Below, in pieces: positions 26,852 through 43,633 of a stretch of DNA of 57,134 bases; within the stretch, counting starts at the first letter, position 1; each line of letters begins with the position of its first letter. Source of the DNA: Candidatus Dojkabacteria bacterium (GTDB lineage: Bacteria > Patescibacteriota > Dojkabacteria > B142 > OLB20). The position numbers and the translations under genes were made by a program. The DNA lies in assembly GCA_046753765.1 (NCBI GenBank), contig JBHHUN010000007.1, positions 1 through 57,134 on the forward strand, given 5' to 3'. The notes beneath the pieces were generated by a model. That model was not told the origin of the DNA. It saw only the letters and a program-made list of their open reading frames with translations, and searched no databases.

Positions 26852-26917
26852 GGTTACTAGGAGATTTGGCTAAAATATGATAAACAGAACTTTGTCTAAA
26901 GATTGCCTAAGGAATCA

Positions 26918-26989
26918 TGAGCGCGATAGGATTCGAACCTACAACCAACTGGTTAAGAGCCAGCTGCTCTACCATTGAGCTACGCGCCC
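26918..26989 (-). tRNA. tRNA-Lys(CTT)
   Basis: GGGCGCG/CGCGCTC acceptor; anticodon arm GCTGG-CTCTTAA-CCAGT; GGTTCGAATCC; CCA not encoded. Confidence 0.95.
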
Positions 26990-27015
26990 ACTAAATCGTG
27001 TTATCCATTATACAC

Positions 27016-27089
27016 TGCGCCCTGAGGGATTCGAACCCCCAACACCTGGTTCCGAAGACCAGTGCTCTATCCAGTTGAGCTAAGGGCGC
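27016..27089 (-). tRNA. tRNA-Arg(TCG)
   Basis: GCGCCCT/AGGGCGC acceptor; anticodon arm CTGGT-CTTCGGA-ACCAG; GGTTCGAATCC; CCA not encoded. Confidence 0.95.
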
Positions 27090-27149: not shown

Positions 27150-30100
27150 CTAACCAAATGGAGAAGCTACTCTTGACTTGCCTTTTCCTGTTGGATCCAA
27201 TGGCAGAGCAAGATCAATTGCTTTTCCAGACCTGGCATCAACTTTTGCAAATACTTGACCAGCAGGGCTTCTAAACAGTGTACCCTTTTTCATCTGAGAA
27301 GAGGGGAATTTAAACCCAGGGGCATCTGAGCTTAGATGGTATTGCCCCGGTTTTGGAGAAAAGCCATACCGTCCTCTATCATCACTCATCTGAACATCAA
27401 CCTGACGACTCTCCTTAATATCAAATAGTCTAATAAATCCGCCCTTCACCCTGCTGCCCGACTTGGTATCGTAGATGTATCCCCAATTACGTTTGTTCCA
27501 ACCCTCGATAAGTTTAAGTACTACAAATTGTACTATGTATAACCCGACAATTACGAAGTTGAAAATGACGGGTGCAATGACGGTGATGATTACTGCTGTC
27601 ACAAACCCGATATAGACTAGGTATGTATTGAAGGACAGCAGTGTTGTCCTGATCCTGTGTCGAAGATCAGTTCGAACTTTTGCATTTCCGCCGCGAATTG
27701 TCATTTCAACATCCTCTGCAACTGACGAATCCTTCTCGGTAATCTTAATCTCTTTTTTGAACCTACCGTAGTCAGGATGCTCAACTTCTAATCGATATGT
27801 TCCCTGATCAATTGGCATACCGTACTTTCCGTTAAGATCAGTAACTCTTTCTTTAATGAACACGCCACCGCTGTACAGTCTAACTGTTGCAAAAGGTATT
27901 GCCTCTCGCGTTGTACCATCGAAAACAATGCCCCATGTTTTGTATTTCTTTCGGTCTTTGATCCAGCCAAGTGCAAACAGTACGAATCTTGGATATGCAA
28001 AGATGTCGAGAGCTATTGTAGCAGTTGTTGCAAACAGAAGCGCAGCCGGAATCGCAGCGAGTGCAAGCTGTCTTAGTATGTCGGCCTCTGGTGTCGTTCT
28101 TCTTGGGAAGTAACGACGGTAAGCGCTGACAGGAATTACACCATTCGCTTCACAATCAGTCGGCTCGTCATTTATCAAAACGTTACACACTATGTTGTAG
28201 ATTGCATCATTTGTACCGTCAAGGTTATCCAACTCAACAATTCCTGTGTGGTTTGTCACCCCCGGATCAGAAGCTGAACTGAATGGCAGATCATCTTCGT
28301 TGTGTCCATAATGGAGCTTGCAGTTTGCGATTCCCGCTGTAGAGTAATTAACAATTACCTGTGCCTGATTGTTAAATGCGATGTCATCCTCCTCAACGGA
28401 GATACACTCAAGAGCCTCTGTTGTCGGCAACTCTCCTCCCGGCGTTGTGAATGCATCGGTGTGCTCCCCCTGTCTGCCAGCGTTTGATTCAGCAATAATT
28501 CTGAATAGATAACCTTCTGCCTCTTCCAGATCAGTGATTGTGTCACAGTGCGACAACGAGTACGTAGTCTCGATATCTGTTGTATCAGTATAAACGCCTA
28601 CACTGCCTAAACCATAATCAATGCTTCCAACGGTAGGGATATTTGTATTCCAGCAGATCTCGACTGTAGTCTCATCAGTCTCATTCACAACCACATCGGT
28701 GATGTCCACACCTTGCTGGCAGTAAGCTGTGTTTGGATTGGCTGAACAGTCTTCACCCGGTGGAACCGTAGGTGTTACTCCCGGATCTGTTGGTGTTGGT
28801 GTGGGAGTAGCAGGTGGTGGTCCGGTTACTGTGATATCTGGTGTTGTCGCTGTTAGTGCCGCATTAATAGTATCGGTCACGGTTACTGTGTAGGTGCCAC
28901 CTTCGGTAAACGTTAGCTCATCTGTGAAGACGTGCTGTCCGGCATCTCCTCCGTTGAAGATGTAGTTCACTGGCAGTACTGCTGTGCCCGAAGTGGAGGC
29001 AAATGTCACCGTGCCGGTATAAGTTGGATCCTGGACTGCAAAGGAATCAAGTGCAGTAACAGTAAGTGTTAATGGATCCCCTGCGTTTACAGAGGTGCTG
29101 CTCACTCCAATTGTAAGGCTGTCTACTGTACTGACAATGAAATCTGCAGCGTTACTCCCGTTATTACCAAACTCTACCCAGTCACTGGTAATCCCCTCAG
29201 TTGAATTTACAACCCGCGCTCTCCATTTGTATGACTCTCCTGGGGTAAGCGCAGGGATTGTTGCCTGAGCAATGATTGCTGCACCCCCTGTATAACTTTG
29301 AATTGGACCTGTTGTAATCCCAAGAACGCCCTCATCTGGAGACGGATCTTTAGCAACTATCTCCCCTATGTGTACCTGTGCACCAGTGAAACTCTCATTA
29401 ACCAAGACAACCTCGAACACTGCCTGAAGATCTATCGGCGTAAGTGCAGTCCCTCCCGGGTCAGACATACTCGCCTTCAAAACAACCTCCTGCTCCTGTG
29501 TCCTACCACCTACAGGGATAATTGTTGATGCGTCTGATTTATACTGGTCTCTAAAAGTTGGTGTACTTGGTATCGTTCCCACCGAAGGATATGTTCCAAC
29601 CTGACCAGTTTGCCCGCCTGGCGAAGCCCCTTGTGCTACAGAGACTACCCCTGTAACATCACATGGCCCAAGAGTTGTAAGAATGGAAACTCTACCTCCT
29701 CCTCCTCCTCCTCCATCAAACACCTCATCTCCACCATCTCCCCCCTCAGCTGTAATATCTCCTGATATGTCACAAGTTTCTCCTTCAATCAATACACTAC
29801 CCCCAGCTCCTCCTCCTCCTCCGGGTGAAGCAGTAAGGCCATCTGTTCCACTTACATCAATTGTTCCAAACAGGTCTACGTTTCCTCTTCTTGCTCGAAT
29901 TGCAACCGCACCACCTCCTTTTCCACCGGAAGTTCCAGGCCCGGATGCTCCTCCTCCGGAACCAATACTCAAAGGCTCTCTTTGACTCCCATAGAAATCA
30001 CCAGCCTGGCCTTCTCCATTTCCGTCATCTTCCCCATTTCCACCTGTTCCACCATGTCCCCCGCCACCACCACCAGAGTTTGTATTCCCTCTTCTACCTG

Positions 30101-33100
30101 CTCCAGGTCCATCTCCTGGAACAAACCCTCTCCCAATACCATCTATCAAGGCTCCCGCCCCTAACGTGAAATCACCTGTAAGATGAAAAACTACACCTCT
30201 TCCAACCCTTACGCTATAAGCTGCGTCATAAGCATCCAGATAGTCCTGGTATTCTTGTGTCCCCAATCCGAATGCCCTCGCAATGATTTCGGTATCACCA
30301 AACACATGGTCATAGATTCCGAATTCGTCAATTAGTCCATTGTAGTTAGTAGTATATCCCTGCCCAATCAAAGCATTTGCCCCACTCACGACTGCATTTG
30401 GATAGATAGCTGCCTCCTCGTTGGTTTTTACGCCATTGATGTACCATTTCAACAGCATATTATCTAAATCGCGCACAACAGCGACATGATTCCATTGGTT
30501 TAATGTTAAAGCTGCCTGGGAAACAAACCCTTGATAAGGTGTTGTATCTGCTCCAGAAGTACCGTAGAAGTAGCTAAGTGTTCCATCTAATTCCTGAGTG
30601 ATAGTGCCTTCTCCACCATACGCTTTATTGTAGGGATTCTGCCTTGAGGCAAAGCTTCTAGGATACAACCACATCTCTATTGTCTGGTTGTGTGTCATCT
30701 GAAGGGCAGCAGGATTCCCCAGATCTACAAAACTGTCTACACCATTAAAATCGAGTGCTTTTTGATATTTTCCATCAACAATAACTGCTCCGGAGTTACC
30801 CCCATTATTTGAGTTCACGGAATCACAAACATCGCCGGAAGGTAAACATGTCCCTGCACTCAGTTCATCCATGTGAAGGAATAAGACTGCATTTGGACCT
30901 GCACCCAACTGATGTTCAGCTGGCAGGGGAGGATAGTTAATGCCTGAAGGTAACCCGAGCGGATCAGCCAGTGCTCTGGTTCTTACGTTAGTACCCAAGG
31001 TAAGGTCACGAAATGAGTAATCCGTCGGATCAAAGCTCATGCCATACGCCCCAGCATTGCCACTATTATCTATTATCAATGACCCTCGCTGTTGACCAAC
31101 CTCGAGTCCTTCTGCAACATAAATTGTTCCCGGACCGCCTCTGGTGCCTGATCCCCCGTAAGCCTGAAGTGTTGTACTTGGATCACCAGAAAAGTCATCA
31201 GTTAATCTTGCTTCCAGTGCAATTCTCCCACCTGCACCGCCACCTGCATCTGAGTACCCACCGCCACCATTTGCTCGAATTACTGGTGTTGAGGTTGGAG
31301 TTTTAGTCAACGTGTCTGCACTAATCCAAATACTTCCACCTGCACCACCACCACCCTGTCCACCCCAGGCATTTGAAACCCCGGCAGTCCCGTTTGTGGT
31401 TATTGTTCCATCTATTGTTGCAGTCCCTATCATATGTAACCCTATTGCCCCACCTCCGGTACCTCCCGCTGCTTTGACACCTACTAATCCACTCCCACGA
31501 CCCCCTCCACTACCCAGTTGTATTGGTTCTAAATAACTTCCATACGGACTTCCTGCAGCACCAACTCTTTGTCCACCATATCCACCATGACCTCCGCCAC
31601 CACCTTCTCTGTCTCCTTGCCCCCCACCACCTGGGCCACTTAGTTGACCATATCCTCCTGCATCCGCAGTAACTACTCCTCCACTTTCCAGAGCAAAATT
31701 GTCAAGATTTAAAGTGGGCCCCCGGTTATTTGTTGTATCCCCCACCATTGTTACGACTGATGTTCCACTCACACTTAAATCGCCAAAAGTGAAGTGTCCA
31801 TCTGTTGCCATTGTTGCAGTTGGATAGAGTGTCAGATCTCCATCTGCAGCAAGTGTTAGATCGTTAACATTCTGCCAGGTGCCCTTAATCGTGATTAGTC
31901 CATTTGTAACAGTGGTTGAGGATGCGGTTATTAGAACACCCCCTGGCTCTATGGAAACACCAGCGTCGGTGATCGCTGAGATTGCAGGTGCATTGACAGT
32001 ACCAAAGGTGGCAAGCTGTGAAGTTCCGTCTCCAACCAAGCTTGTACTCCCCGCGAGGTTAACGGTTGATCCCGGATCTGTAAGCTCTAAATCCCCATAT
32101 TCCGTCAGTTGAATTTGCTCAAAGTTGTAGGTTTCTCCGATACCTGATATTCCTGCACTTCTTCCATTTCTACCCGCATTATTCACAATAACCAGTCCCT
32201 CTCCTGGAGTTTGACTTGGTCCTTCATAGTATAGTGTGCCTGCACCGCCGTAGGTACCATTCCCGGTTCTTGCCTGCACTGTTGACAGACTGTCAAAGGT
32301 AAAATCATCAGTAGTGTGAGCATAAAGTGCAATTCTTCCGCCACCTCCCGCTCCTGCGTCAGAGTATCCATTTCCACCATTTGCATTAATAACCGGACCT
32401 GTTCCTCCGGTTTTTGTAAGCACATCTGCGCTTATCCAGATACTTCCTCCTGATCCTCCACCAGATTGTGCCCCGTGCGCATTAGTTGTTCCATTTCCCC
32501 CCACCGCTGTGATCAGCCCGTCTATAGTTACAGTATCTGTAGCAATTATTTTAATTGCTCCCCCTCCGGTTGCTCCAGCCGTTTGTTGATTAACTGATCC
32601 TTTACCTCTTCCCCCACCACTTCCGAGCTGTGTCGGTTGTCCAAAATCCCCATATGGAACACCGCCAGCGCCAATCCGTTGACCGCCATAGCCTCCATAT
32701 CCTCCTCCTCCTCCCTCTTTATCACCCATGTATCCCCGACCTGGTCCCGATTCACTTCCATACCCTCTAACATCCGCTGTAACTACTCCGCCTTCGGCCA
32801 AACTAAAGTTATCTAATAAAAGGCCGGGTCCCTGGTTATTTGCAGTGTCGCCTATAAACGAGATAGTTGATGTTGAGCTCACGGTTACATCTCCAAATGT
32901 GAAGTCGCCGTTCACTGCGCCTGTTGCTGTGGGGTATAGGATAAGATCCCCATCCGCTGCAAGAGTTAAATCAACTATGTCCTGCCAAGTACCTTTGATT
33001 GTTACTTCTGAATTAGTAACTGTAACGGAAGGGGAGGTAATTAATGTTCCCCCGGTTTCTATAAAGACGCCTGCATTTGAAAGGGCATTAACTGGTGGTC

Positions 33101-36100
33101 CATTTATTATTCCATACGTGACGAGTTGGGCTGTTCCATCTCCAGTTAGTCCAGCTGTAGAATTAAGATTTATTGTTGAGTTGGGATCTGTCAGTTCCAA
33201 GTCGCCATAACCAATCAGGTTGATGTTCTCGAAGTCGTATGTTTGAGCTACTCCGCTAATTGCTGCTCTTCTCCCATTTCTTCCTTTGTTATCAACGATA
33301 ACCTTACCCTGACCTGGTATTTGAGATGGTCCCTCGTAGTAAAGAGTTCCAGCACCCCCGTACGTACCGTTTCCACTACGCGCCTCCACAACCGTAGAAG
33401 TATCAATATTCAAATCATCAGTAGTATGGACATAAACTGCGACTCTCCCACCTGCACCTGCTCCTGCATCAGAATACCCATTCCCGCCATTGACAGTTAT
33501 CAATGGAGTACCTGCAGTTGTAGTTAGAATATCTGTTTCTAGCCATATGCTTCCTCCTGCACCACCACCCGACTGCGCACCGTGCGCATTAGTGGTGCCA
33601 TTGTTGCCGATAGCAGTGATTGTGCCATCTATTGTTGCAGTTCCGGCCACAATAAGCTTAATCGCCCCAGCTCCAGTCGCACCACTTGTTTTTTGACCCA
33701 CCAATCCACCGCCTCGTCCTCCACCACTACCGAGCTGAGTTGGCTGTTTGATATCATCATATGGAGCACCTCCTGCTCCAACCCTTTGACCTCCATAACC
33801 ACCGTGACCTCCACCTCCTCCTTCACGATCGCCAAAAGCGCCAGGACCTGGTCCTGATTCGCTTCCAAACCCCCTACCGTCGGCCGAAATTATCCCCCCT
33901 GAATCAATAGTGAGATTGTCGAGATTAAGTCCGACCCCTCTGTTATTAGTCGTATCCCCCAGAAGTGTTACGACCGAAGTAGAGCTTACAGATAAATCAC
34001 CGAACGTAAATTCACCAGCGACTGCCTGGGTCGCAGTTGGGTAAAAAATCATGTCGCCATCCGCAGCCAAAGTGATATCATCAATTCCCTGCCACGTGCC
34101 CCTCCAGGTTACAAGTGAATTAGTTACTGTTACTGCACTCGAGGTTATTAGTATTCCACCGGTTTCAATAAATACACCTGCATTTGTGATTGCATTCAAA
34201 ACAGGCCCGTTCACAGTTCCGTATGTAACCAGTTGGGAGGTTCCGTTTGCATCACCGGTTAAGCCTGCTGCAGATGTCAGGTTGATTGTAGATCCTGGAT
34301 CTGTCAACTCCAGGTGTCCGTAGTTAATCAGGTGAATGTTCTCAAATGTATATGTCTGGTTTAGTCCGCTGATTGCAGCTCTGCCACCGTTTCTTCCCAC
34401 ATTATCAACCCTAACCAATCCCTGCCCCGGTACCTGTGAAGGTCCTTCGTAATAATATGTGCCTGCCCCCCCATACGTACCAGCTCCTGTATATGCTTGA
34501 ATTGTTGTATTTGGATCTGTTGTGAAAGCATCGGTACCGGACGCGTAGATGGCAATACGCCCACCTGCCCCCCCCCCACCTGCACCGCCACCGCTACCGC
34601 CATTTACCCTCACTATCGGAGTTGAACCACCAGTTTTCGTAAGATTTGTGGCTTCAATCCATATTGATCCACCAGAACCACCGCCTGAATTGGCACCGTG
34701 CGCATTCGTCGACCCATTACCCCCATTCGCAGTTATCGTTCCATCAATTGTGGCTGTCCCTGAGACATCGAGTTTAATTGCACCACCGGCAGTTCCTCCA
34801 TTTCTACGTTGATTGAATGAACCATTGCCCCTACCGCCCCCACTCCCAAGCTGGGTCGGCTGGGTTATTGAATCATAAGGCACACCACCTGCTCCGTTGG
34901 TTGTAGCACCATAACCTCCGTGTCCACCACCTCCTCCTCTTTTAGATCCGATAATACCAGGTGACGGTCCGGCCTCGCTACCGTAACCTCTCGTGTCAGC
35001 TGTGACCAAGCCCCCACTGGTCAAAGTGAAATTGTCGAGGCTCAAGGTTACCCCTCTATTGTTGGTAGTGTCCCCAAGAAGGGTTACCACCGAACTGGAG
35101 CCAACGTTGAGATCTCCAAAAGTGAATTCGCCAGCGACCGCCTGTGTTGCAGTTGGATAAAACGTCAGATCTCCGTCTGCAGCTAACGTTATATCGTCGA
35201 TCCCTGACCAGGTCCCCCGCCAGGTAATTAGTGCGTTAGACACAGTCACGGCATTCGCCGCAATCAATGTTCCGCCAGTTTCGATGAATACACCAGAATC
35301 GGTTATGTTAGTTAAACTTGGTCCGTTAACTGTCCCAAATGTAACGAGCTGGGATGTACCATCACCAGTCAATCCAGCGGTAGATGTAATGTTTACAGTT
35401 GAACCAGGATCAGTAAGTTCTAAGTCTCCCTCCCCTGTCAAGTGGATATTTTCAAATGTATAGGTCTGATTTGTACCTGAGATACCAGCCCTTTTACCCA
35501 CTCTACCAACATTATCTACCCTGACCAATCCACTTCCAGACTGCTGGGATGGTCCTTCAATATAGATTGTTCCGGCACCACCATATGACCCTCCCCCAGT
35601 GTAAGCCTCAATTGTAGTGTTTGCGTCTTGTGTAACGTCATCTGTAGTTCTTGCGTAGATCGCTATTCTACCCCCTGCACCAGCACCACCAGAACCACCC
35701 CCACTACCCCCATTAGCCCTGATAATCGTTGTAGCTCCGGGTGTTTTTGTAAGAATATCAGTGTCGATCCAGATCGCACCACCAGACCCTCCACCGGAAT
35801 TGGCTCCGTGTGCATTAGTAGAACCATTCCCTCCTATCGTTGTAATCACACCATCCAGCGTAGCAGAACCCGTAATTTCAAGATGAATCGCACTCCCTCC
35901 AGGTCCACCATTTCTGCGTTGGTTGAATGAACCGTTCCCTCTACCTCCACCGCTTCCCGGTTGCGTAGGCTGTTTTATATCATCATAAGGAACTCCAGAG
36001 GCACCATTTCCCGTTCCCCCATAACCACCGTGTGATGCGCCTCCTCCTCTTTTACTTCCAATAATTCCTCTCCCAGGGCCACTTTCGCTTCCGTATCCGA

Positions 36101-38336
36101 GATAGTTACCGGAAATCGTACTACCGGGATCGAGATCGAGGTTATCCATTAGTATCGTGACTCCGTATTCGGGTCCGACTTCATATGAATCAAGGCTTAA
36201 GATTGCATTGTTGGTGATTGTTATTGTTAAACCACGACAATCGAAAATGCCCTGATTTGTTGCATCAGCGACCCACGTTTGGTTTGCATCGATTATTCCA
36301 TCTGCATCGGGACACGCACCAAGTGAGGTAACAACTGCAATCGCATTCGAAAGAGCACTAACCAGTCCATCTTCACCCTTCACCTTAATGCTGTCTTCAG
36401 TATCGTACTGCATGTTAGAGATGGTTTTTATTCCCGCATCCCCGCCTGTGAAGATTACTGAAGAAGGCGTGAGGCTACCGCCCAGTACGGTTACTCCATC
36501 AAGTGCATCAACTGGTGAGAAATTTATTGTTCCTGTGTAATTAGTCTTAAGGTTGTTGTATTGGTCAAATACCTCGATTGTTACTGTGTCGAAGTTTTGA
36601 TTTATTAGAGCGACATCAGGGGCGTCAATATTAATTCTTGAAAGCACGTCGGGGTTACCACTTGAATAAAAGTCTACTGGGCTTCCATTTAGTCCTGAGC
36701 CACTTGCTCTAACTCTGTTGTTGAGGCTTCCAGCAGTTCTCCCCAGTTTATAGTTATTCTCTGCTATTCCACTGGCATCCGTTACGGAAGTTGCACCGTT
36801 CAGAAGTGTTCCCCCGCTTGCACCGTTAATTACGCTCCAACTAACAACATACCCAGGAATCGCCCCTCCTGAGCTATCTGTGACCTTAACCTTCAAAGGG
36901 TTACCAAGATTCGTAAATACCGTTCCCGACTGACTATCGCCTGAGATCAGTGAGATAGTGTCTGGCTGACCTGTAATTCGAAAATCAGTATCATTTTCTG
37001 TGTTACCACCAAAACTAGCCCAGGCACTATATCCACCATTATTGTCACGTACTCTGGCCTGCCAGTGGTAGTCCTGTAGCCGCGTTAACCCACTCACAAC
37101 GATCTTCCCACAATCTGATGTTGGCGAACTGCACAATTGAGGATTGCTCTGGTTTACAACCTGAGTATGAGTTGGCACTCCTGTAAAAGGAGTACCCAAC
37201 TGTTGTAGCTCTATCTGCATCGCCAACGTGTCGGGCAGGTCAGGGTCAATCATGTCGGTCACAAATACTACTGTTGTTTGTGTAGTCACGTCTCCGACAG
37301 GTATCTCTGTTGTTTCGTTGGATCGGAACTGTTTCAAGATGCTTGGAGTATTCGGTCTACAAGTAGGACCAATCTGGGTTCCAATCCCACCGTTCTGGGA
37401 TCCAATCCCTTGATCAACCTGCACAGTCCCGGAGAAATTATTTAGGGTGTCACAAAGCATCACAAGTCGTCCACCGCCGCCGCCGCCACCGGTGTACGTT
37501 GCCGATGTTGCATCTCCACCATTTGCCGAGACCAACCCAGCACCTGCAAATTCATCAGCTTCGATCCAAATGCTTCCTCCGGCACCACCACCACCCGATG
37601 AGTCTGTCCCAACCTGCCCGGTTTCACCGTCAGCAGTAATTTCGCCATTAATTGTGACTACGCCTGTAGAATCGATTTTTAGTGCACCACCACCTGTACC
37701 TCCAACTCCACCATCTCCACCGCTACCACCAGCACTTCCCAGTGTAACTGGAGCTTCAGTTGATCCATACGCATTTCCTGGAGTACCGGAAGGGTTACTT
37801 CCGTCCTCCGCTCCCTCTCCTCCAGCACCTCCATGTCCACCCCCTGCGCCACCTGTTGTCCCCGCACTGTCTCCTCCGTCTCCACTTGGTGATTCTGCCT
37901 CTCCTGGTAAGTACCCCTTACCCGTGGCATTAATTTTTCCTCCACTTTGGACTGTCAGGTCTTTTACTAACAACGTAACTCCCCAGTCTCCTGCCAGATC
38001 GTCGTTATCAGTAACATTTCTCTCAATTATCACTTCTCCTGTGGCTCCGATAATCAGATCAAGGCTTGCGCAGTTTACGACACCATCAACGTTATCGGGT
38101 GTTACTGTCACCTGGGTACTAATTACAGTAGGTGCAGCGGGAAGTGGGCATACACTCTCAGCGATAATTCTTCTGAATATCTGAAGATAATTTACCCCTG
38201 TAAACAGAACCGCCACTGCAACAAAAGCGAACACAGTAGAATAAATGAAGAGTTCCACACGCCTGAGGCGGCTTGTCAATCTTGGAAGCCTGTTGATTAG
38301 CGAATTGAGATTAATTCGCTTCGAGTCCTTGCTCAT
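27150..38336 (-). CDS. Giant (~3730 aa) Gly-rich repeat cell-surface protein
   Basis: Uninterrupted 11.2-kb ORF. N-terminal TM anchor, Gly-rich units, Ig/FN3-like modules, LamG domain, Pro/Thr linker, C-terminal TMs with two carboxypeptidase-regulatory-like domains. ATG at 38336 preferred over TTG at 38348. Confidence 0.92.
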   Translation of the reverse strand: MSKDSKRINLNSLINRLPRLTSRLRRVELFIYSTVFAFVAVAVLFTGVNYLQIFRRIIAESVCPLPAAPTVISTQVTVTPDNVDGVVNCASLDLIIGATGEVIIERNVTDNDDLAGDWGVTLLVKDLTVQSGGKINATGKGYLPGEAESPSGDGGDSAGTTGGAGGGHGGAGGEGAEDGSNPSGTPGNAYGSTEAPVTLGSAGGSGGDGGVGGTGGGALKIDSTGVVTINGEITADGETGQVGTDSSGGGGAGGSIWIEADEFAGAGLVSANGGDATSATYTGGGGGGGRLVMLCDTLNNFSGTVQVDQGIGSQNGGIGTQIGPTCRPNTPSILKQFRSNETTEIPVGDVTTQTTVVFVTDMIDPDLPDTLAMQIELQQLGTPFTGVPTHTQVVNQSNPQLCSSPTSDCGKIVVSGLTRLQDYHWQARVRDNNGGYSAWASFGGNTENDTDFRITGQPDTISLISGDSQSGTVFTNLGNPLKVKVTDSSGGAIPGYVVSWSVINGASGGTLLNGATSVTDASGIAENNYKLGRTAGSLNNRVRASGSGLNGSPVDFYSSGNPDVLSRINIDAPDVALINQNFDTVTIEVFDQYNNLKTNYTGTINFSPVDALDGVTVLGGSLTPSSVIFTGGDAGIKTISNMQYDTEDSIKVKGEDGLVSALSNAIAVVTSLGACPDADGIIDANQTWVADATNQGIFDCRGLTITITNNAILSLDSYEVGPEYGVTILMDNLDLDPGSTISGNYLGYGSESGPGRGIIGSKRGGGASHGGYGGTGNGASGVPYDDIKQPTQPGSGGGRGNGSFNQRRNGGPGGSAIHLEITGSATLDGVITTIGGNGSTNAHGANSGGGSGGAIWIDTDILTKTPGATTIIRANGGSGGGSGGAGAGGRIAIYARTTDDVTQDANTTIEAYTGGGSYGGAGTIYIEGPSQQSGSGLVRVDNVGRVGKRAGISGTNQTYTFENIHLTGEGDLELTDPGSTVNITSTAGLTGDGTSQLVTFGTVNGPSLTNITDSGVFIETGGTLIAANAVTVSNALITWRGTWSGIDDITLAADGDLTFYPTATQAVAGEFTFGDLNVGSSSVVTLLGDTTNNRGVTLSLDNFTLTSGGLVTADTRGYGSEAGPSPGIIGSKRGGGGGHGGYGATTNGAGGVPYDSITQPTQLGSGGGRGNGSFNQRRNGGTAGGAIKLDVSGTATIDGTITANGGNGSTNAHGANSGGGSGGSIWIEATNLTKTGGSTPIVRVNGGSGGGAGGGGAGGRIAIYASGTDAFTTDPNTTIQAYTGAGTYGGAGTYYYEGPSQVPGQGLVRVDNVGRNGGRAAISGLNQTYTFENIHLINYGHLELTDPGSTINLTSAAGLTGDANGTSQLVTYGTVNGPVLNAITNAGVFIETGGILITSSAVTVTNSLVTWRGTWQGIDDITLAADGDMIFYPTATQAVAGEFTFGDLSVSSTSVVTLLGDTTNNRGVGLNLDNLTIDSGGIISADGRGFGSESGPGPGAFGDREGGGGGHGGYGGQRVGAGGAPYDDIKQPTQLGSGGGRGGGLVGQKTSGATGAGAIKLIVAGTATIDGTITAIGNNGTTNAHGAQSGGGAGGSIWLETDILTTTAGTPLITVNGGNGYSDAGAGAGGRVAVYVHTTDDLNIDTSTVVEARSGNGTYGGAGTLYYEGPSQIPGQGKVIVDNKGRNGRRAAISGVAQTYDFENINLIGYGDLELTDPNSTINLNSTAGLTGDGTAQLVTYGIINGPPVNALSNAGVFIETGGTLITSPSVTVTNSEVTIKGTWQDIVDLTLAADGDLILYPTATGAVNGDFTFGDVTVSSTSTISFIGDTANNQGPGLLLDNFSLAEGGVVTADVRGYGSESGPGRGYMGDKEGGGGGYGGYGGQRIGAGGVPYGDFGQPTQLGSGGGRGKGSVNQQTAGATGGGAIKIIATDTVTIDGLITAVGGNGTTNAHGAQSGGGSGGSIWISADVLTKTGGTGPVINANGGNGYSDAGAGGGGRIALYAHTTDDFTFDSLSTVQARTGNGTYGGAGTLYYEGPSQTPGEGLVIVNNAGRNGRSAGISGIGETYNFEQIQLTEYGDLELTDPGSTVNLAGSTSLVGDGTSQLATFGTVNAPAISAITDAGVSIEPGGVLITASSTTVTNGLITIKGTWQNVNDLTLAADGDLTLYPTATMATDGHFTFGDLSVSGTSVVTMVGDTTNNRGPTLNLDNFALESGGVVTADAGGYGQLSGPGGGGQGDREGGGGGHGGYGGQRVGAAGSPYGSYLEPIQLGSGGGRGSGLVGVKAAGGTGGGAIGLHMIGTATIDGTITTNGTAGVSNAWGGQGGGGAGGSIWISADTLTKTPTSTPVIRANGGGGYSDAGGGAGGRIALEARLTDDFSGDPSTTLQAYGGSGTRGGPGTIYVAEGLEVGQQRGSLIIDNSGNAGAYGMSFDPTDYSFRDLTLGTNVRTRALADPLGLPSGINYPPLPAEHQLGAGPNAVLFLHMDELSAGTCLPSGDVCDSVNSNNGGNSGAVIVDGKYQKALDFNGVDSFVDLGNPAALQMTHNQTIEMWLYPRSFASRQNPYNKAYGGEGTITQELDGTLSYFYGTSGADTTPYQGFVSQAALTLNQWNHVAVVRDLDNMLLKWYINGVKTNEEAAIYPNAVVSGANALIGQGYTTNYNGLIDEFGIYDHVFGDTEIIARAFGLGTQEYQDYLDAYDAAYSVRVGRGVVFHLTGDFTLGAGALIDGIGRGFVPGDGPGAGRRGNTNSGGGGGGHGGTGGNGEDDGNGEGQAGDFYGSQREPLSIGSGGGASGPGTSGGKGGGAVAIRARRGNVDLFGTIDVSGTDGLTASPGGGGGAGGSVLIEGETCDISGDITAEGGDGGDEVFDGGGGGGGRVSILTTLGPCDVTGVVSVAQGASPGGQTGQVGTYPSVGTIPSTPTFRDQYKSDASTIIPVGGRTQEQEVVLKASMSDPGGTALTPIDLQAVFEVVLVNESFTGAQVHIGEIVAKDPSPDEGVLGITTGPIQSYTGGAAIIAQATIPALTPGESYKWRARVVNSTEGITSDWVEFGNNGSNAADFIVSTVDSLTIGVSSTSVNAGDPLTLTVTALDSFAVQDPTYTGTVTFASTSGTAVLPVNYIFNGGDAGQHVFTDELTFTEGGTYTVTVTDTINAALTATTPDITVTGPPPATPTPTPTDPGVTPTVPPGEDCSANPNTAYCQQGVDITDVVVNETDETTVEICWNTNIPTVGSIDYGLGSVGVYTDTTDIETTYSLSHCDTITDLEEAEGYLFRIIAESNAGRQGEHTDAFTTPGGELPTTEALECISVEEDDIAFNNQAQVIVNYSTAGIANCKLHYGHNEDDLPFSSASDPGVTNHTGIVELDNLDGTNDAIYNIVCNVLINDEPTDCEANGVIPVSAYRRYFPRRTTPEADILRQLALAAIPAALLFATTATIALDIFAYPRFVLFALGWIKDRKKYKTWGIVFDGTTREAIPFATVRLYSGGVFIKERVTDLNGKYGMPIDQGTYRLEVEHPDYGRFKKEIKITEKDSSVAEDVEMTIRGGNAKVRTDLRHRIRTTLLSFNTYLVYIGFVTAVIITVIAPVIFNFVIVGLYIVQFVVLKLIEGWNKRNWGYIYDTKSGSRVKGGFIRLFDIKESRQVDVQMSDDRGRYGFSPKPGQYHLSSDAPGFKFPSSQMKKGTLFRSPAGQVFAKVDARSGKAIDLALPLDPTGKGKSRVASPFG
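31110..36170 (-). repeat. Five tandem ~370-aa coding repeats inside the giant gene
   Basis: The Gly of the G[YF]G motif begins at 36098, 34988, 33872, 32765 and 31655 (periods 1110, 1116, 1107, 1110 nt). The fifth unit is partial. Boundaries approximate. Confidence 0.92.
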
Positions 38337-38427
38337 ATAACTAAACAACGAGTTGACATAAATATAGCAATATTGAAATTCGAGGGCAATGAACTTTCGA
38401 GCTATTTAGGGGACAAATCGAGATAGA

Positions 38428-39717: not shown

Positions 39718-40336
39718 CCGCGTATCCGAGGTCTCCAAGTACTAAATCGATAACTTTTACAGCATCGTCTCGTGCTTCATTAAGAATACCAAAGTCGCCA
39801 TTTACCGCACCTCGACCCTGTTTAATCAACTCCTGTCTTGCGAGGTTGAAATCCTGATTGGGATCGTTTGCAAACAAGAAGCGGAGCAATCCGTTTGTGG
39901 TTTCGACTTCTATGTCACCATTAACGGATGCACCCAGTATCTCAGCAGCCGGAAGGTCTATCTGGATTGTCCTGTTTTCGTTGTCTACTATGATCTGATC
40001 TTTCGTCAGCTTACTGTAGTCAACACCGGCATCGATCCTGACCAGCCCCTCTGCTTTTATCTCCTGACCCCACCAAAAGTTAGACCAATCTGAGCCTTTA
40101 TCGATTTTTATAGTGGCTTTCTGGTCGAGAAACACCGTTTTAGTAACAACAAATGCTTCGCTTGATATCTTTTCGACAATAACTTGAGAGGTGATCTGGC
40201 GAGCCTCCTCAGGCTTTTCCTGGATAGTTGGTCTGAATATGATTCCGCCCGCAATTACAGAGCACAGCACAAGTAACGCTCCAGATACAATTGTTGTAAG
40301 TAGTAGAAGTGGCTTTGATTTTTTTAGGTTATTCAT
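39677..40336 (-). CDS. DUF4230-like membrane-anchored protein
   Basis: N-terminal TM, then IDAGVDYSKL...IQIDLPAAEIL; its ATG overlaps the zwf stop (GATGAATAA). Confidence 0.7.
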   Translation of the reverse strand: MNNLKKSKPLLLLTTIVSGALLVLCSVIAGGIIFRPTIQEKPEEARQITSQVIVEKISSEAFVVTKTVFLDQKATIKIDKGSDWSNFWWGQEIKAEGLVRIDAGVDYSKLTKDQIIVDNENRTIQIDLPAAEILGASVNGDIEVETTNGLLRFLFANDPNQDFNLARQELIKQGRGAVNGDFGILNEARDDAVKVIDLVLGDLGYAVSVLSVDTSPSTP

Positions 40337-41741
40337 CTGCAAGTTCGTTGCTGCCTGCTGGATAAAGTATGAGGTCATCAGCGTTATTCTCCCATCTTTT
40401 CAGAATAGAATCCACGAATGTCCAAGAGGCCTTAAGCTCTTCAGTTCCCAGAAATAAGCTTCGCCTTAACCTGATTACGTCCAGCATTATTTTTTCGTAT
40501 GCGTCGGGCAAGATAGTTTGAAAGCTCTCTTTATAATTAAAAGACATATCAACCTCATCGAGTCTTTCACTCGTTGGCTTTTTAACCTGAAGCTTAAGTG
40601 TCATCCCTTCGTGTGGTTGGAGTCTAAAAATGAGTGTGTTACTGCCTTTAATACCCTTGATTGATTCGTTTGGTTTGTAATCAACAATTATGCTCGAATT
40701 TTTCTCTTTCATGCGCTTCCCCGATACAATATCCAATTCAAGGCCATCCCAGTCTCCACCACCAACTTTTGCCCTAATCTTTACAAATGTCTCTGTGTCC
40801 GAATCTTCAGAAACATCATTTTCTTCTTTGTAGCCCACAACAATCTTTCCCCCAACAACACCCTCTTTGTACTGGCCACGAATGATCTCGACAGCCCTAA
40901 GATTTTTGAGCACTTCAGTCTTTGCAGCTCTGATCTTATCGTGATCAAACTCATTTGGAAGCTGCATTAACACCAGGGCTACAAGCTGTAAGATGTGACT
41001 CTGAACCATATCCCGCAGATGTCCATAGGAATCATAGTAGCTACCTCTTGTGCCTACACCAAGTGATTCATAAACGTGTATTTTAATAGCACGAATATGC
41101 TTAACATCCCAATCATCCAGGAAGAACGGATTAGCCGCCCTGAAGTACAGTAAGTTTTGTACAGTTTCTTTACCCAGATAGTGGTCGATTCTATAGATTT
41201 GAGATTCCTCAAACACAGAGAGAACCTTCTCATTAAGAGATTTAAAGCTGGCAAGATCTCTGCCGAAGGGCTTTTCAATTACAACCCTCGTATCTTTGAC
41301 GTTCTCGCAGATCTGACTTAACTGTGTCTGTTGAAGTCCTTCGAATACTTGACCGAAAAAATCAGGACTAATTGCGAGATGGAATATCTTATGCGTGCAA
41401 ACGCCTAAACTATCGTCTATTTCGTTGAGTCTATCGGCAAGAGTCTTATAAGCCTCCATGTCTGAAAAGTCACCGCGTAGATAACTGACCCTCTTTGAAA
41501 ACCTATTCCAAGTTACCTGATCAAGGAGCCTCGGTTTCATTTTTTCGACTTCATCTTTTAGATACTTACGAAAACTCTCAGCAGTATATTCTCTTCGTGC
41601 AAAGGCGATTATCTCAAACTGTCCTGGAAGAAGCCCTTGTTTATCGAGATTGTACAAAGCGGGAATCAGCTTCCTTCTGGTGAGATCACCAGAGCCACCA
41701 AAGATAACTAGAATAGTGGGTTGATTGTTAGAAATATCCAT
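40329..41741 (-). CDS. zwf: Glucose-6-phosphate 1-dehydrogenase
   Basis: GGSGDLTRRKL, IEKPFG, YRIDHYLGKE, RDMVQSH. Confidence 0.97.
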   Translation of the reverse strand: MDISNNQPTILVIFGGSGDLTRRKLIPALYNLDKQGLLPGQFEIIAFARREYTAESFRKYLKDEVEKMKPRLLDQVTWNRFSKRVSYLRGDFSDMEAYKTLADRLNEIDDSLGVCTHKIFHLAISPDFFGQVFEGLQQTQLSQICENVKDTRVVIEKPFGRDLASFKSLNEKVLSVFEESQIYRIDHYLGKETVQNLLYFRAANPFFLDDWDVKHIRAIKIHVYESLGVGTRGSYYDSYGHLRDMVQSHILQLVALVLMQLPNEFDHDKIRAAKTEVLKNLRAVEIIRGQYKEGVVGGKIVVGYKEENDVSEDSDTETFVKIRAKVGGGDWDGLELDIVSGKRMKEKNSSIIVDYKPNESIKGIKGSNTLIFRLQPHEGMTLKLQVKKPTSERLDEVDMSFNYKESFQTILPDAYEKIMLDVIRLRRSLFLGTEELKASWTFVDSILKRWENNADDLILYPAGSNELADE

Positions 41742-41746
41742 ATTGA

Positions 41747-42682
41747 TTATCTCTGTGGTCTTTCATGTTCTGTATGCCCTCCAAACTCTGCCCGCAGGGC
41801 CGAAATGACCTTATGAATTATCTCGTCTCTCTCTCTTGACGCGTACCTCGTATAGACGGCATTCGCAATATTCGTAAAAGGAACCTCTCTTTCAAGTGCT
41901 TCCTCTACTGCCCATTTACCTGTCCCAAGTGAGCCAACCATTGTTGGGGCATTGTCAAGTTTGTTATCTTTACTAAACGCAGTGTGCATAATTCCCATTA
42001 AGTTTCCAGCAATGATGCTGCCATGGTTCCAAACATCAGTGAGTTTGGATAGATCAACATCAAATCCAGACTTATGAAGCAGGTTAAATCCTTCTCCCAT
42101 CGCCTGCATGGTAGCGTACTCTATGGCGTTATGCACCATTTTTACGTAGTGTCCAGAGCCTCTTTTCCCAAAATAGCCGTATCCGGACTCGGTAGACATG
42201 TCCGAAATAAGGTCTTCTATATATTCAAATGCACCTTTGTCACCACCAGCCATAATACAGGCACCGTTTCGTGCACCGACGATACCACCACTAACCCCAC
42301 AATCAATAAGATGAATTCCTTTTTCTAATAACTTGTCTCCCCTCCTAATGCTGTCTTTGTAATGCGAGTTAACACCATCGATAAAGATATCTCCTGAGTT
42401 TAATCTTCTGTTCTCGCTTTCATCGGATACTGTCTGTTCTATCACCTCATCTACGGGTTCCCCAGCGGCTATCATAGAGAAGAGCACCTTTCTACCCTTG
42501 AGGTTTTCTATAAGGTCCGGGATAGATTCGTACACTTTCGCACCCTCTTTCTCCACTTCGACTCGTGGCGGAGCACTTCTATTCCAGGCATGCACCTCCC
42601 AGCCTTGCTCAAGTAACCTAAAAACCATATTCTTCCCCATGTTGCCAAGCCCTATAAATCCCACCTGCTTTTTATCCATCAC
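41747..42682 (-). CDS. gnd: 6-phosphogluconate dehydrogenase, short decarboxylating type
   Basis: GLGNMG, DCGVSGG, GHYVKMVHNAIEY, ALRAEFGGH. Confidence 0.94.
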   Translation of the reverse strand: MMDKKQVGFIGLGNMGKNMVFRLLEQGWEVHAWNRSAPPRVEVEKEGAKVYESIPDLIENLKGRKVLFSMIAAGEPVDEVIEQTVSDESENRRLNSGDIFIDGVNSHYKDSIRRGDKLLEKGIHLIDCGVSGGIVGARNGACIMAGGDKGAFEYIEDLISDMSTESGYGYFGKRGSGHYVKMVHNAIEYATMQAMGEGFNLLHKSGFDVDLSKLTDVWNHGSIIAGNLMGIMHTAFSKDNKLDNAPTMVGSLGTGKWAVEEALEREVPFTNIANAVYTRYASRERDEIIHKVISALRAEFGGHTEHERPQR

Positions 42683-42695
42683 AAACTATTAAGAG

Positions 42696-43582: not shown

Positions 43583-43633
43583 CATACCAAGGCTGGAAAT
43601 CTTTTAAAATCACACTAATACATAGATATCCTT

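What the first reader, a model, noticed from the sequence alone, without database searches (positions are those of the whole stretch)
27150..38336. 11.2-kb gene for a doubly membrane-anchored giant surface protein
Seen: N-terminal TM; Gly-rich unit; FN3-like and Ig-like modules; five ~370-aa repeats; LamG domain (~30290-30900); another Gly-rich unit; Ig module; Pro/Thr hinge; two FN3-like modules; then TM, carboxypeptidase-regulatory-like domain, 2 TMs and a second such domain. It occupies about 20% of this window. Known: CPR are mostly episymbionts and giant surface proteins are reported in them, largely uncharacterised. Inference: a host-attachment filament with a lectin-like head.
Basis: partly seen in the sequence, partly recalled or inferred. 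Interest (0 to 1): 0.72.

Follow-up and report, generated by a model that had tools for sequence, protein, structure and literature searches.

The report
Giant membrane-anchored surface fibre gene
This 11.2-kb gene of an uncultured ultra-small (Dojkabacteria/CPR) bacterium encodes a 376-kDa cell-surface rod of seven glycine-rich beta-solenoid units. It is held in the membrane by an undescribed anchor module shared by well over a thousand other surface-protein clusters; what the rod binds is unknown.

Summary
One unbroken ORF lies on the minus strand (27150..38348; ATG at 38336; 3728-3732 aa), and two sequencing runs of the same sample assemble it identically. LamG passes Pfam's threshold. The Ig and FN3 calls stay below threshold. 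The two "Gly-rich units" are the same domain as the core of the five repeats, so there are seven units. A confident AlphaFold model (pLDDT 88, pTM 0.90) shows a beta-solenoid with no close solved relative. NusA places the organism in Dojkabacteria (WS6, CPR). Thirteen orthologues all have exactly 1+5+1 units. The end units are positional orthologues, whereas the five central units are homogenised within each protein, so rod length looks selected. LamG occurs in only 5 of 13, so it is an accessory, not the defining head. The last 328 aa form a module of TM helix, transthyretin-like sandwich, TM hairpin and second sandwich. It ends more than 1,400 protein clusters with unrelated extracellular passengers. 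Charge bias puts both sandwiches in the cytoplasm. Double anchoring is plausible but unproven. Host attachment remains inference, and no RNA data exist.

The parts
27150..38348 (-). Whole ORF, 3732 aa from TTG. The ATG at 38336 gives the 3728-aa protein on record. 376 kDa, pI 4.4.
38259..38348 (-). Cytoplasmic N-terminal tail (aa 1-30) with 8 K/R and the leader motif INLNSLINRLP
   Evidence: The motif [LIVF]xL[NS]x[LIWY]Ix[KR]LP is found 3-28 residues from the N-terminus in 6 distinct anchor-bearing proteins. Two of these carry unrelated passengers. None is expected in shuffles.
38190..38258 (-). N-terminal TM helix (aa 31-53), a signal-anchor, probably uncleaved
   Evidence: Hydropathy 2.28 over 19 aa. 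Conserved in orthologues. No lipobox.
37329..38171 (-). Gly-rich beta-solenoid unit 0 (aa 60-340), opening with a conserved Cys67/Cys93 pair
   Evidence: Self-BLAST 31-41% identity to the other units. Unit HMM hit. AgmC_N-like, far below threshold. Positional orthologue in 13/13.
36309..37331 (-). FN3-like module plus Ig-like (Big_1-like) modules (aa 340-680)
   Evidence: Sub-threshold Pfam Big_1 and Ig_Rha78A_N. Homologous to aa 2935-3180.
30993..36281 (-). Five tandem ~372-aa units (aa 690-2452), each a Gly-rich core plus a beta-helix extension. The fifth is truncated.
   Evidence: AF2 model of aa 1000-1494: pLDDT 88.4, pTM 0.90, all-beta short strands. The weak best fold matches are beta-helix adhesins.
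30279..30902 (-). LamG / concanavalin-A-like domain (aa 2483-2690; Pfam match 2536-2688)
   Evidence: PF13385 E 2.6e-18 and 1.7e-20 on the excised segment. An insert at this site is present in 5/13 orthologues.
29544..30251 (-). Gly-rich unit 6 (aa 2700-2935)
   Evidence: 41% identical to unit 0. Positional orthologue in 13/13.
28809..29546 (-). Second FN3-like plus Ig-like pair (aa 2935-3180)
   Evidence: Homology to aa 340-680. Weak PKD and InlK_D3 matches.
28746..28820 (-). Pro/Thr-rich hinge (aa 3177-3201, PPPATPTPTPTDPGVTPTVPPGE)
   Evidence: Read directly from the sequence.
28134..28700 (-). Two FN3-like modules with conserved Cys residues (aa 3217-3405)
   Evidence: fn3 and Pur_ac_phosph_N below threshold. 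Weak neogenin FN3 hit with the orthologue profile. Conserved C3268, C3315, C3343, C3388 and C3399.
27960..28076 (-). Anchor TM1 plus a short helix after the YPR kink (aa 3425-3463), followed by the polybasic KDRKKYK-WG junction
   Evidence: AF2 H16-47 and H49-59. 4.2 K/R in the 8 residues after it, averaged over ~147 family members.
27702..27932 (-). Transthyretin-like / CarboxypepD_reg-like beta-sandwich 1 (aa 3473-3549), inferred to be cytoplasmic
   Evidence: PF13715 28.3 bits. AF2 pLDDT >90. Foldseek gives rmsd 2.0-2.5 A over ~81 residues to the carboxypeptidase D transthyretin-like domain, 1qmu and 5aq0.
27495..27635 (-). TM2-TM3 helical hairpin (aa 3572-3618) with an uncharged 5-residue loop
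27192..27482 (-). Transthyretin-like beta-sandwich 2 (aa 3623-3719), inferred to be cytoplasmic
   Evidence: Internal similarity to sandwich 1. AF2. Foldseek.
27153..27191 (-). Basic tail ending in the SPFG motif (aa 3720-3732)
   Evidence: 69 of 151 family members have PF in their last 8 residues. 96 of 151 have PF or F[GS] there.

Best explanation
The gene encodes a giant, membrane-anchored, extracellular rod of a Dojkabacteria (CPR) cell.

Shown:
- An N-terminal hydrophobic signal-anchor.
- A ~3,370-residue passenger. It holds seven copies of one glycine-rich beta-solenoid domain (1+5+1), Ig/FN3-like spacers, an accessory LamG carbohydrate-binding-type domain and a Pro/Thr hinge.
- A 300-residue C-terminal module made of a TM helix, a transthyretin-like sandwich, a TM hairpin and a second sandwich.

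Inferred:
- The Sec pathway exports the passenger.
- The C-terminal module acts as a stop-transfer anchor that stitches the chain three times through the membrane. Both sandwiches and the SPFG tail stay in the cytoplasm.
- The N-terminal helix is not cleaved, so both ends stay in the membrane.
- The rod projects from or arches over the cell surface with a genetically fixed length. It mediates contact (adhesion) with another surface, and LamG adds glycan binding in this lineage.

The same anchor module serves as a general surface-protein anchor in these bacteria.
For: - ORF integrity.
- Taxonomy: NusA is 73% identical to WS6 OLB20 / Ca. Dojkabacteria. The anchor is 46% identical to a WS6 OLB20 locus.
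- Architecture.
- Rod fold: the AF2 model has pLDDT 88.4 and pTM 0.90 with regularly spaced short strands. The top PDB matches, all weak, are beta-helix adhesin passengers (Ag43, Hbp, TibA, EspC, Hap), lyases and tailspikes.
- Conserved orthologue family: 13 proteins of 3,384-3,961 aa at 34-44% identity, each with exactly 7 units.
- Unit evolution: the end units are positional orthologues in 26/26. The central units have their nearest neighbour in the same protein in 44/65. Identity is 0.50 within a protein against 0.41 and 0.40 between proteins. The units turn over or homogenise while their number stays at five.
- Anchor structure: AF2 pLDDT 86.7. Each sandwich superposes on the carboxypeptidase D transthyretin-like domain at 2.0-2.5 A.
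- Anchor distribution: 3,279 cluster representatives at E<=1e-3, 1,494 at <=1e-10 and 127 at <=1e-30. The module is at the extreme C-terminus in 148 of 151 examined. Passengers are unrelated and of extracellular type: Cohesin, TSP3, Big_5, Beta_helix/NosD, NHL, SBBP. Many members have classical signal peptides.
- Topology: mean K/R is 4.2 in the 8 residues after TM1, 4.6 before TM2, 2.4 after TM3 and 0.04 in the TM2-3 loop. The segment before TM1 is net acidic. The N-tail has 8 K/R against 2 after the TM. Cys residues conserved across orthologues lie only in the passenger.
- Uncleaved N-terminus: receiver-like N-terminal domains in about 10 anchor-bearing paralogues, and a conserved cytoplasmic leader motif.
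Against: - There are no expression data. No RNA run holds the gene.
- No ligand or host is known.
- LamG is absent from 8 of 13 orthologues, so glycan binding cannot be the core function.
- A strictly fixed unit number is unusual for adhesins, whose repeat numbers commonly vary. It fits a structural spacer equally well.
- CarboxypepD_reg, CnaB and SdrD_B-type sandwiches are normally extracytoplasmic. The cytoplasmic placement rests on charge bias and helix counting, not on experiment.
- The inter-domain geometry of the anchor model is uncertain (pTM 0.56).
- Cleavage of the N-terminal helix could not be tested, because no SignalP or DeepTMHMM was available.
- The Ig/FN3 assignments are below threshold.
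Confidence: 0.6

Rival explanations
1. It is a fixed-length structural element of the cell envelope, not an adhesin. It could be a spacer, strut, or scaffold associated with an S-layer. It would set a distance or hold an outer layer, and LamG would be an optional decoration.
For: - Exactly 1+5+1 units in 13/13 orthologues despite homogenisation of the central units.
- A housekeeping neighbourhood without synteny to partner genes.
- LamG in only 5/13.
- Both ends probably sit in the same membrane, which suits an arch or strut.
Against: - No similarity to known S-layer proteins or SLH domains.
- The fold class (beta-solenoid plus Ig/FN3 stalk plus lectin-type domains) is typical of adhesins.
- The closest orthologue adds a galactose-binding F5/8 type C domain, which points to ligand binding.
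Confidence: 0.2
2. It is a transmembrane coupling or sensing device. Force or contact on the extracellular rod passes through the three-helix module to the two cytoplasmic sandwiches and the N-terminal leader. These dock a cytoplasmic partner. The outcome would be signalling, or a motility 'leg' like the giant Gli proteins of Mycoplasma mobile.
For: - Conserved cytoplasmic elements at both ends: the leader motif, and two sandwiches plus the SPF[GSN] tail.
- Paralogues with receiver-like N-terminal domains.
- Distant motif similarity of the Gly-rich unit to the N-terminal domain of the gliding protein AgmC.
Against: - The AgmC match is far below threshold (90 bits against 275).
- The receiver matches are below Pfam's threshold (21-28 bits against 30.2).
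- No partner gene is conserved next to the giant in the three loci seen.
- No motor or kinase was found nearby.
Confidence: 0.12
3. It is a singly anchored protein. The N-terminal helix is a long cleavable signal peptide, so the mature protein is tethered only by the C-terminal module and extends as a free fibre with unit 0 at its tip.
For: - Many proteins with the same anchor have ordinary cleavable-looking signal peptides.
- Several orthologues have small residues before the conserved Cys, for example IAAVIA-C in P0040.
- A free fibre is the usual geometry for monoderm adhesins.
Against: - The hydrophobic core is ~22 residues long.
- It is followed by a conserved basic, amphipathic stretch of ~12-15 residues before any candidate site.
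- Several orthologues have Pro immediately after the only Ala-x-Ala (ASA-PCP).
- The cytoplasmic leader motif is conserved.
- Receiver-domain paralogues show that an uncleaved N-in anchor exists in this family.
Confidence: 0.35
4. The beta-solenoid units are catalytic, acting as polysaccharide lyases or depolymerases on a host cell wall, rather than being structural.
For: Among the weak fold matches are PL6 alginate lyase, fucoidan lyase, polygalacturonase and phage tailspike depolymerases.
Against: - All those matches have E>0.1 and TM-scores of about 0.1-0.2.
- No Pfam or NCBIfam enzyme family matches.
- The invariant residues of the units are almost all Gly, with few Asp/Glu/Lys/Arg of the kind expected in a conserved active site.
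Confidence: 0.04

Closest known systems
Uncurated C-terminal '3 TM + 2 transthyretin-like domains' anchor module of CPR/Patescibacteria surface proteins. There is no Pfam or NCBIfam model of the whole module. I found no paper on it. Earlier notes of this scan describe it in other genomes.
   Same: - The same order of elements, with the polybasic-WG junction after TM1 and after TM3.
- Extreme C-terminal position.
- Unrelated extracellular passengers.
- The SPF[GSN] tail in most members.
   Different: Here the module closes a conserved 7-unit beta-solenoid giant. It is paired with an N-terminal leader motif and a TM helix.
LPXTG/sortase-anchored monoderm adhesins (MSCRAMMs such as SdrD, serine-rich repeat proteins, pilins)
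   Same: - An N-terminal export signal.
- A long stalk of Ig-like or beta-helix modules.
- A Pro/Thr-rich segment near the C-terminal anchor.
- A hydrophobic helix followed by a basic cluster.
- The anchor's sandwiches resemble CnaB and SdrD_B domains.
   Different: - No LPXTG motif.
- The anchor is a 300-residue polytopic module, not a sorting signal.
- Its sandwiches are inferred to be inside the cell, whereas CnaB and SdrD_B domains are outside.
Beta-helical passengers of autotransporter and two-partner-secretion adhesins (Ag43, Hbp, TibA, Hap, EtpA)
   Same: An elongated parallel beta-solenoid rod serves as the main body. These are the best, though weak, fold matches.
   Different: - E>=3.7e-3 and TM-score ~0.2, so the fold is not the same in detail.
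- No beta-barrel translocator was found; Pfam reports only five families, none of that kind.
- CPR cells are generally held to lack an outer membrane (my knowledge), so I did not expect one.
- The coils are wide and glycine-rich.
AgmC N-terminal domain (NCBIfam NF047640, an adventurous gliding motility protein of Myxococcus)
   Same: The same series of Gly-rich motifs. Five stretches of the protein match profile positions ~216-396.
   Different: The score is 90 bits against a cut-off of 275, so it is not a member. Nothing about AgmC's mechanism was found in the paper library.
Giant membrane proteins of the CPR predator Vampirococcus lugosii (PMC8080830)
   Same: CPR proteins of 1,392-4,163 aa that are predicted to be membrane-located. 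They carry adhesion-type domains and are proposed to form the fibrous cell surface and to mediate host attachment.
   Different: The paper names different domains (WD40, PKD, DUF11, integrin, saposin). I did no sequence comparison with them.
Giant RTX adhesins (for example the ice-binding adhesin of Marinomonas, LapA, SiiE)
   Same: - Hundreds of kDa in size.
- Tandem spacer repeats that set the reach.
- Lectin-type ligand-binding domains inserted near one end.
   Different: - No RTX nonapeptide array and no type I secretion signal.
- They are held at the outer membrane by an N-terminal plug, whereas this protein has alpha-helical membrane anchors.

Membership tests
Laminin_G_3 / concanavalin-A-like lectin superfamily (PF13385) | Sequence match above Pfam's gathering score over the whole domain | tested here: met
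   67.1 bits against 27.6, E 2.6e-18, profile positions 2-150 of 151. 74.2 bits on the excised segment.
Laminin_G_3 / concanavalin-A-like lectin superfamily (PF13385) | Carbohydrate or other ligand binding | not testable with these tools
   Needs a glycan array or binding assay on aa 2483-2690.
CarboxypepD_reg-like / transthyretin-like beta-sandwich (PF13715, PF13620) | Sequence match above the gathering score | tested here: inconclusive
   In this protein PF13715 scores 28.3 bits against 32.2. Family members with the same module pass, for example P0020 at 51.8 bits and 43 of 48 scanned members at E<=1e-4.
CarboxypepD_reg-like / transthyretin-like beta-sandwich (PF13715, PF13620) | Seven-stranded prealbumin-like sandwich fold | tested here: met
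   AF2 pLDDT >90 in both domains. Foldseek gives rmsd 2.0-2.5 A over 80-81 residues to 1qmu_A, 2nsm and 5aq0.
CPR C-terminal anchor module (uncurated) | Order TM1 / polybasic-WG / sandwich / TM hairpin / basic-WG / sandwich, at the extreme C-terminus | tested here: met
   phmmer full-length matches to 150 listed proteins, nearly all C-terminal. Alignment A1. Structure.
CPR C-terminal anchor module (uncurated) | Both sandwiches on the cytoplasmic side | tested here: inconclusive
   Positive-inside counts over ~150 members favour it strongly. There is no experimental topology and no dedicated predictor was available.
AgmC N-terminal domain (NF047640) | Score above the curated cut-off of 275 bits | tested here: not met
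   90.4 bits for the whole protein in 5 stretches. 27.1 and 17.8 bits for single units.
Fibronectin type III (PF00041) and Big_1 (PF02369) modules | Score above the gathering threshold | tested here: inconclusive
   fn3 16-18 bits against 25. Pur_ac_phosph_N 27.7 against 30. Big_1 27.4 against 34.9. The orthologue profile against PDB gives only neogenin FN3 at E 0.088.
LPXTG sortase substrates | LPXTG-type motif before a C-terminal hydrophobic helix and basic tail | tested here: not met
   There is no LPxTG. The only loose match is IPVSA at aa 3405.
Autotransporter / type V adhesins | C-terminal beta-barrel translocator domain | tested here: not met
   No such Pfam match. The C-terminus is alpha-helical TM plus sandwiches.
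RTX adhesins | Arrays of GGxGxDxUx nonapeptides and a type I secretion signal | tested here: not met
   A single chance match at aa 2869. No HemolysinCabind hit.
Bacterial lipoproteins | Lipobox [LVI][ASTVI][GAS]C at the end of the signal peptide | tested here: not met
   None in the first 80 residues.

The most novel reading that the evidence does not exclude
The giant is not a passive adhesin. It would be a fixed-length, doubly anchored transmembrane coupling device. The N-terminal leader motif and the C-terminal pair of cytoplasmic transthyretin-like domains with the SPFG tail would dock one cytoplasmic partner. Contact or pulling on the extracellular beta-solenoid arch would then be passed into the cell, as mechanosensing or a motility-like 'leg'. 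The receiver-domain paralogues would be signalling versions of the same device. In that case the anchor module would define a CPR-wide class of outside-in couplers.
Probability: 0.12. Interest if true: 0.85.

Novelty: new variant of a known kind. Interest (0 to 1): 0.55.

Why it matters
How ultra-small CPR bacteria build their surfaces and hold on to other cells is largely unknown, and very few are cultured. This gene gives three concrete handles.

1. It belongs to a conserved orthologue family of ~3,400-4,000-aa proteins in Dojkabacteria whose rod length appears to be under selection. The count stays at five central units while the units themselves are homogenised. A measurable fibre length can therefore be looked for in cryo-ET.

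2. It contains a glycine-rich beta-solenoid domain with no Pfam model and no close solved structure. The same domain also occurs in giant proteins of other phyla.

3. It carries a 300-residue anchor module that closes well over a thousand surface-protein clusters. If the module does place two folded domains in the cytoplasm, it is an unusual way to fasten surface proteins, or to couple them to the cell interior.

The module could also serve as a sequence tag for listing the surface proteome of these organisms from metagenomes.

Tried and rejected
- The genome search and the fetch from genomes were shut. I could not count anchor-bearing genes per genome, check for sortase, or search the genome for partners.
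- A word-based homologue search with the excised C-terminal module found nothing. The exhaustive phmmer search was needed.
- The search for related loci with the broad alignment A1 had no conserved stretch. The narrower A2 worked but returned only 5 loci, so it is not a census.
- An RNA-run search found none, so expression is untested.
- The orthologue profile against PDB sequences gave only a marginal FN3 hit. The anchor profile against PDB gave marginal NOMO and TonB-receptor hits.
- NCBIfam has nothing for the anchor.
- Literature searches for the anchor ('carboxypeptidase regulatory' plus Patescibacteria) and for AgmC gave nothing usable.
- Foldseek of the repeat model found no significant PDB match. 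In BFVD it found only weak matches to Gly-rich proteins of giant viruses.
- The 'polyglycine-II bundle' idea from another note could not be resolved, because model coordinates are not readable here. The Gly-rich arcs are modelled with confidence but without assigned strands.
- Rejected: lipoprotein, LPXTG substrate, RTX adhesin and autotransporter.
- Rejected: assembly artefact.
- Rejected: an operon with a conserved partner. The neighbours differ in the window, L001 and L007.
Full report
**1. Observation.**
The window contains one very long ORF on the minus strand, 27150..38348. It is 3732 codons from a TTG. An ATG four codons later, at 38336, gives the 3728-aa protein already on record from this same 57,134-base contig.

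The ORF is not an assembly accident. In run X1 a single contig covers 27045-38700 without a difference. In run X2 two overlapping contigs do the same, with even depth. Both runs come from the same hydrothermal-vent sample, so this is not independent biology.

The gene is richer in G+C (0.48-0.50) than its flanks (0.42-0.46) and is strongly G-skewed on its coding strand. This fits 18% glycine. The product is 376 kDa with pI 4.4.

**2. Anatomy.**
Self-comparison, Pfam and NCBIfam give the following order:
- a basic N-terminal tail (aa 1-30);
- a TM helix (31-53);
- a Gly-rich unit (60-340);
- an FN3-like module and Ig-like modules (340-680);
- five tandem ~372-aa units (690-2452, 48-73% identical, the fifth truncated);
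- LamG (Pfam 2536-2688, E 2.6e-18, above threshold);
- another Gly-rich unit (2700-2935);
- a second FN3-like/Ig-like pair homologous to the first (2935-3180);
- a Pro/Thr hinge (3177-3201);
- two FN3-like modules (3217-3405);
- the C-terminal membrane module (3425-3732).

First, the 'Gly-rich units' at either end are homologous to the core of the five repeats (31-41% identity), so the protein has seven copies of one domain. Second, the FN3/Ig labels rest on sub-threshold matches only.

**3. The repeat unit.**
I folded aa 1000-1494, one central unit with 60 residues on each side. The alignment held 19 units from this protein and its relatives. The model is confident: pLDDT 88.4, pTM 0.90. It is all-beta, with short strands every 6-7 residues in the C-terminal half. 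In the Gly-rich half three longer strands (AIKLDV..., GGSIWIEA..., GRIAIY...) are separated by glycine-rich arcs.

Foldseek finds no significant solved relative; the best hit has E 3.7e-3 and TM ~0.2. The list is nevertheless headed by parallel beta-helix passengers of adhesins (Ag43, Hbp, TibA, EspC, Hap), lyases and tailspikes. In the viral library only Gly-rich proteins of giant viruses match weakly. I read this as a beta-solenoid rod of a type not yet solved.

The NCBIfam match to the N-terminal domain of the gliding protein AgmC is motif-level only: 90 bits against a cut-off of 275.

The same Gly-rich unit also occurs in giant proteins labelled Verrucomicrobiales, Anaerolineales and others. 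It is thus a widespread domain that has no Pfam model.

**4. Organism and relatives.**
NusA from the window is 73% identical to NusA of candidate division WS6 bacterium OLB20 and of Ca. Dojkabacteria MAGs. A scan of reference genomes with the anchor found its best match (46%) in WS6 OLB20.

The neighbourhood is housekeeping:
- tRNA-Arg, tRNA-Lys, trxA, trxB and gdh lie downstream;
- DUF218, DUF4230, zwf, gnd and pgl lie upstream.

It is not shared with the loci of two relatives.

**5. A conserved orthologue family with a fixed number of units.**
Thirteen full-length relatives of 3,384-3,961 aa, 34-44% identical to this protein, have the same architecture. A unit HMM finds exactly seven units in each.

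In a tree of all 91 units, the first units form one clade and the last units another. For these end units the nearest neighbour has the same position in 26 of 26. The central units instead group mostly by protein. Their nearest neighbour is in the same protein in 44 of 65. Mean identity is 0.50 within a protein, against 0.41 for the same position and 0.40 for other positions between proteins.

So the central units are homogenised or replaced within each lineage, yet their number stays at five. This argues that the length of the rod is under selection.

Taking the usual 4.8 A rise per solenoid coil, my rough estimate of the contour is several tens of nanometres. That figure is inference, not measured on the model.

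**6. LamG is an accessory.**
The segment between unit 6 and unit 7 carries an insert in only 5 of the 13 orthologues. The insert is LamG here and in three of the others. In the closest relative, P0018, it is a galactose-binding F5/8 type C domain plus LamG. The other eight join the two units directly.

A lectin-type domain at a fixed insertion site is consistent with ligand binding in some lineages. It cannot be the core function, and it is not at the end or the middle of the chain.

**7. The C-terminal module.**
An exhaustive phmmer search with the last 328 aa found 3,279 cluster representatives at E<=1e-3, 1,494 at <=1e-10 and 127 at <=1e-30. In 148 of the 151 I examined, the module is at the extreme C-terminus of proteins from ~260 to over 4,000 aa.

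Their passengers are unrelated and of extracellular type: Cohesin-like, TSP3, Big_5, Beta_helix/NosD, NHL, SGL, SBBP and P_proprotein. Many begin with ordinary signal peptides.

The AF2 model has pLDDT 86.7. It shows the following elements:
- a 32-residue helix;
- a Tyr-Pro kink;
- an 11-residue helix;
- a beta-sandwich;
- a helical hairpin;
- a second sandwich.

Each sandwich superposes on the transthyretin-like domain of carboxypeptidase D at 2.0-2.5 A, and resembles CnaB and SdrD_B domains.

Neither Pfam nor NCBIfam has a model of the whole module, and I found no paper on it. Earlier notes of this scan describe the same module in other CPR genomes. I treat them as leads and reached the description above from my own searches.

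**8. Topology.**
Over about 150 aligned members, mean K/R counts are:
- 4.2 K/R in the eight residues after the first helix pair;
- 4.6 K/R in the ~21 residues before TM2;
- 2.4 K/R in the seven residues after TM3;
- 0.04 K/R in the five-residue TM2-TM3 loop;
- a net acidic segment before TM1 (1.2 K/R against 2.75 D/E).

The 11-residue helix is too short to cross the membrane. By the positive-inside rule, the passenger is outside and both sandwiches and the tail are inside. That is unusual for this fold class, which is normally extracytoplasmic, so I keep it as a strong inference rather than a fact.

PF stands in the last eight residues in 69 of 151 members, and PF or F[GS] in 96. This protein ends ...ASPFG.

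**9. The N-terminus and 'double anchoring'.**
The tail before the N-terminal helix has 8 K/R, against 2 after it, so it is N-in. Several observations argue against cleavage:
- The hydrophobic core is ~22 residues long.
- In the orthologues it is followed by a conserved basic amphipathic stretch and then A-x-x-C-P.
- Several orthologues read ASA-PCP, where Pro at +1 would block signal peptidase I (the rule is from my knowledge).

A cytoplasmic leader motif, [LIVF]xL[NS]x[LIWY]Ix[KR]LP, precedes the helix in six distinct anchor-bearing proteins. Two of them have unrelated beta-propeller passengers. None is expected by chance.

About ten other anchor-bearing proteins begin with a receiver-like domain followed by a TM helix. 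Three of them were scanned and match Pfam Response_reg at E 2e-6 to 4e-4, below threshold. Such proteins must keep their N-terminus in the cytoplasm.

Double anchoring of this giant is therefore plausible. I put it near 0.6-0.65, but it is not shown.

**10. What it most likely does.**
Shown: a giant ORF, its domain order, the solenoid fold prediction, the conserved family, and the shared anchor.

Inferred:
- Sec export;
- retention by the C-terminal module, and probably also by the N-terminal helix;
- a surface rod or arch of fixed length;
- a contact or adhesion function, with LamG adding glycan binding.

Four rivals remain: a purely structural envelope spacer, a transmembrane coupler or sensor, a singly anchored free fibre, and a catalytic solenoid. 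The first and third are live. The last has almost no support. No expression data exist.

**11. Comparison with the known.**
In function the protein resembles monoderm stalk adhesins and beta-helical autotransporter passengers. It fails the defining tests of LPXTG substrates, autotransporters, RTX adhesins and lipoproteins. It is not a member of the AgmC_N family.

It belongs to the general class of giant CPR membrane proteins proposed to mediate host attachment, as in Vampirococcus (PMC8080830).

What differs is:
- the unmodelled Gly-rich solenoid unit in a fixed 1+5+1 array;
- the polytopic anchor with folded domains on the inside;
- conserved cytoplasmic elements at both ends.

**12. Verdict.**
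I class it as a new variant of a known kind, of moderate interest (0.55). The anchor module has already come up repeatedly in this scan. The new points here are:
- the orthologue family with a selected unit number;
- the accessory status of LamG;
- the leader motif;
- the receiver-domain paralogues.

Noticed in passing
L007 10001-20911 (P0034); also P0059, P0068, P0075, P0077, P0106, P0108, P0110, P0121, P0128: About ten proteins with the same C-terminal anchor begin with a receiver-like domain (Pfam Response_reg, E 2e-6 to 4e-4, below threshold). A TM helix and a large extracellular passenger follow. Surface proteins would then have cytoplasmic domains at both ends, possibly regulated by phosphorylation. 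No kinase lies within 10 kb of P0034.
   Followed up: partly
window 38280-38315 (aa 12-22 of the giant); N-termini of P0021, P0024, P0027, P0040, P0043: A conserved cytoplasmic leader motif [LIVF]xL[NS]x[LIWY]Ix[KR]LP lies 12-18 residues before the N-terminal TM helix. Anchor-bearing proteins with unrelated passengers share it. It is absent from shuffled controls.
   Followed up: partly
window 27153-27164 (last residues ASPFG): A short motif, [ST]PF[GSN] or KFG, sits at the very C-terminus. 69 of 151 anchor-bearing proteins have PF in their last 8 residues, and 96 of 151 have PF or F[GS] there. It follows a variable basic linker. The rest end right after the second sandwich.
   Followed up: partly
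P0004-P0017 (proteins from other phyla): The Gly-rich solenoid unit occurs 3-11 times in giant proteins labelled Verrucomicrobiales (caspase family), Anaerolineales (Ig-like) and 'SBBP repeat' proteins. These lack the CPR anchor. It is a widespread domain with no Pfam model.
   Followed up: partly
P0033 (2870-aa fragment): Three consecutive central units give identical HMM coordinates and scores. This points to a very recent amplification, in contrast with the diverged units here.
   Followed up: no
window 26917-27089: tRNA-Lys(CTT) and tRNA-Arg(TCG) lie 60-160 bases downstream of the giant gene on the same strand. Contigs of both runs break or branch exactly there, with many loose ends at 26926-27050. 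Presumably the tRNA sequence is shared with other organisms in the sample.
   Followed up: no
window 4801-7203: An 800-aa Clp/Hsp100-type ATPase gives strong Pfam matches only for the second AAA module (AAA_2, ClpB_D2-small).
   Followed up: no
window 44560-46629: A 689-aa ORF matches Glyco_hydro_1 over only ~145 residues (profile positions 60-199 of 453). It is either a partial or a highly diverged GH1 domain inside a larger protein.
   Followed up: no
window 40329-43613: zwf, gnd and a pgl-like gene form a complete oxidative pentose-phosphate block directly upstream of the giant gene's neighbours. I recorded it as context only.
   Followed up: no
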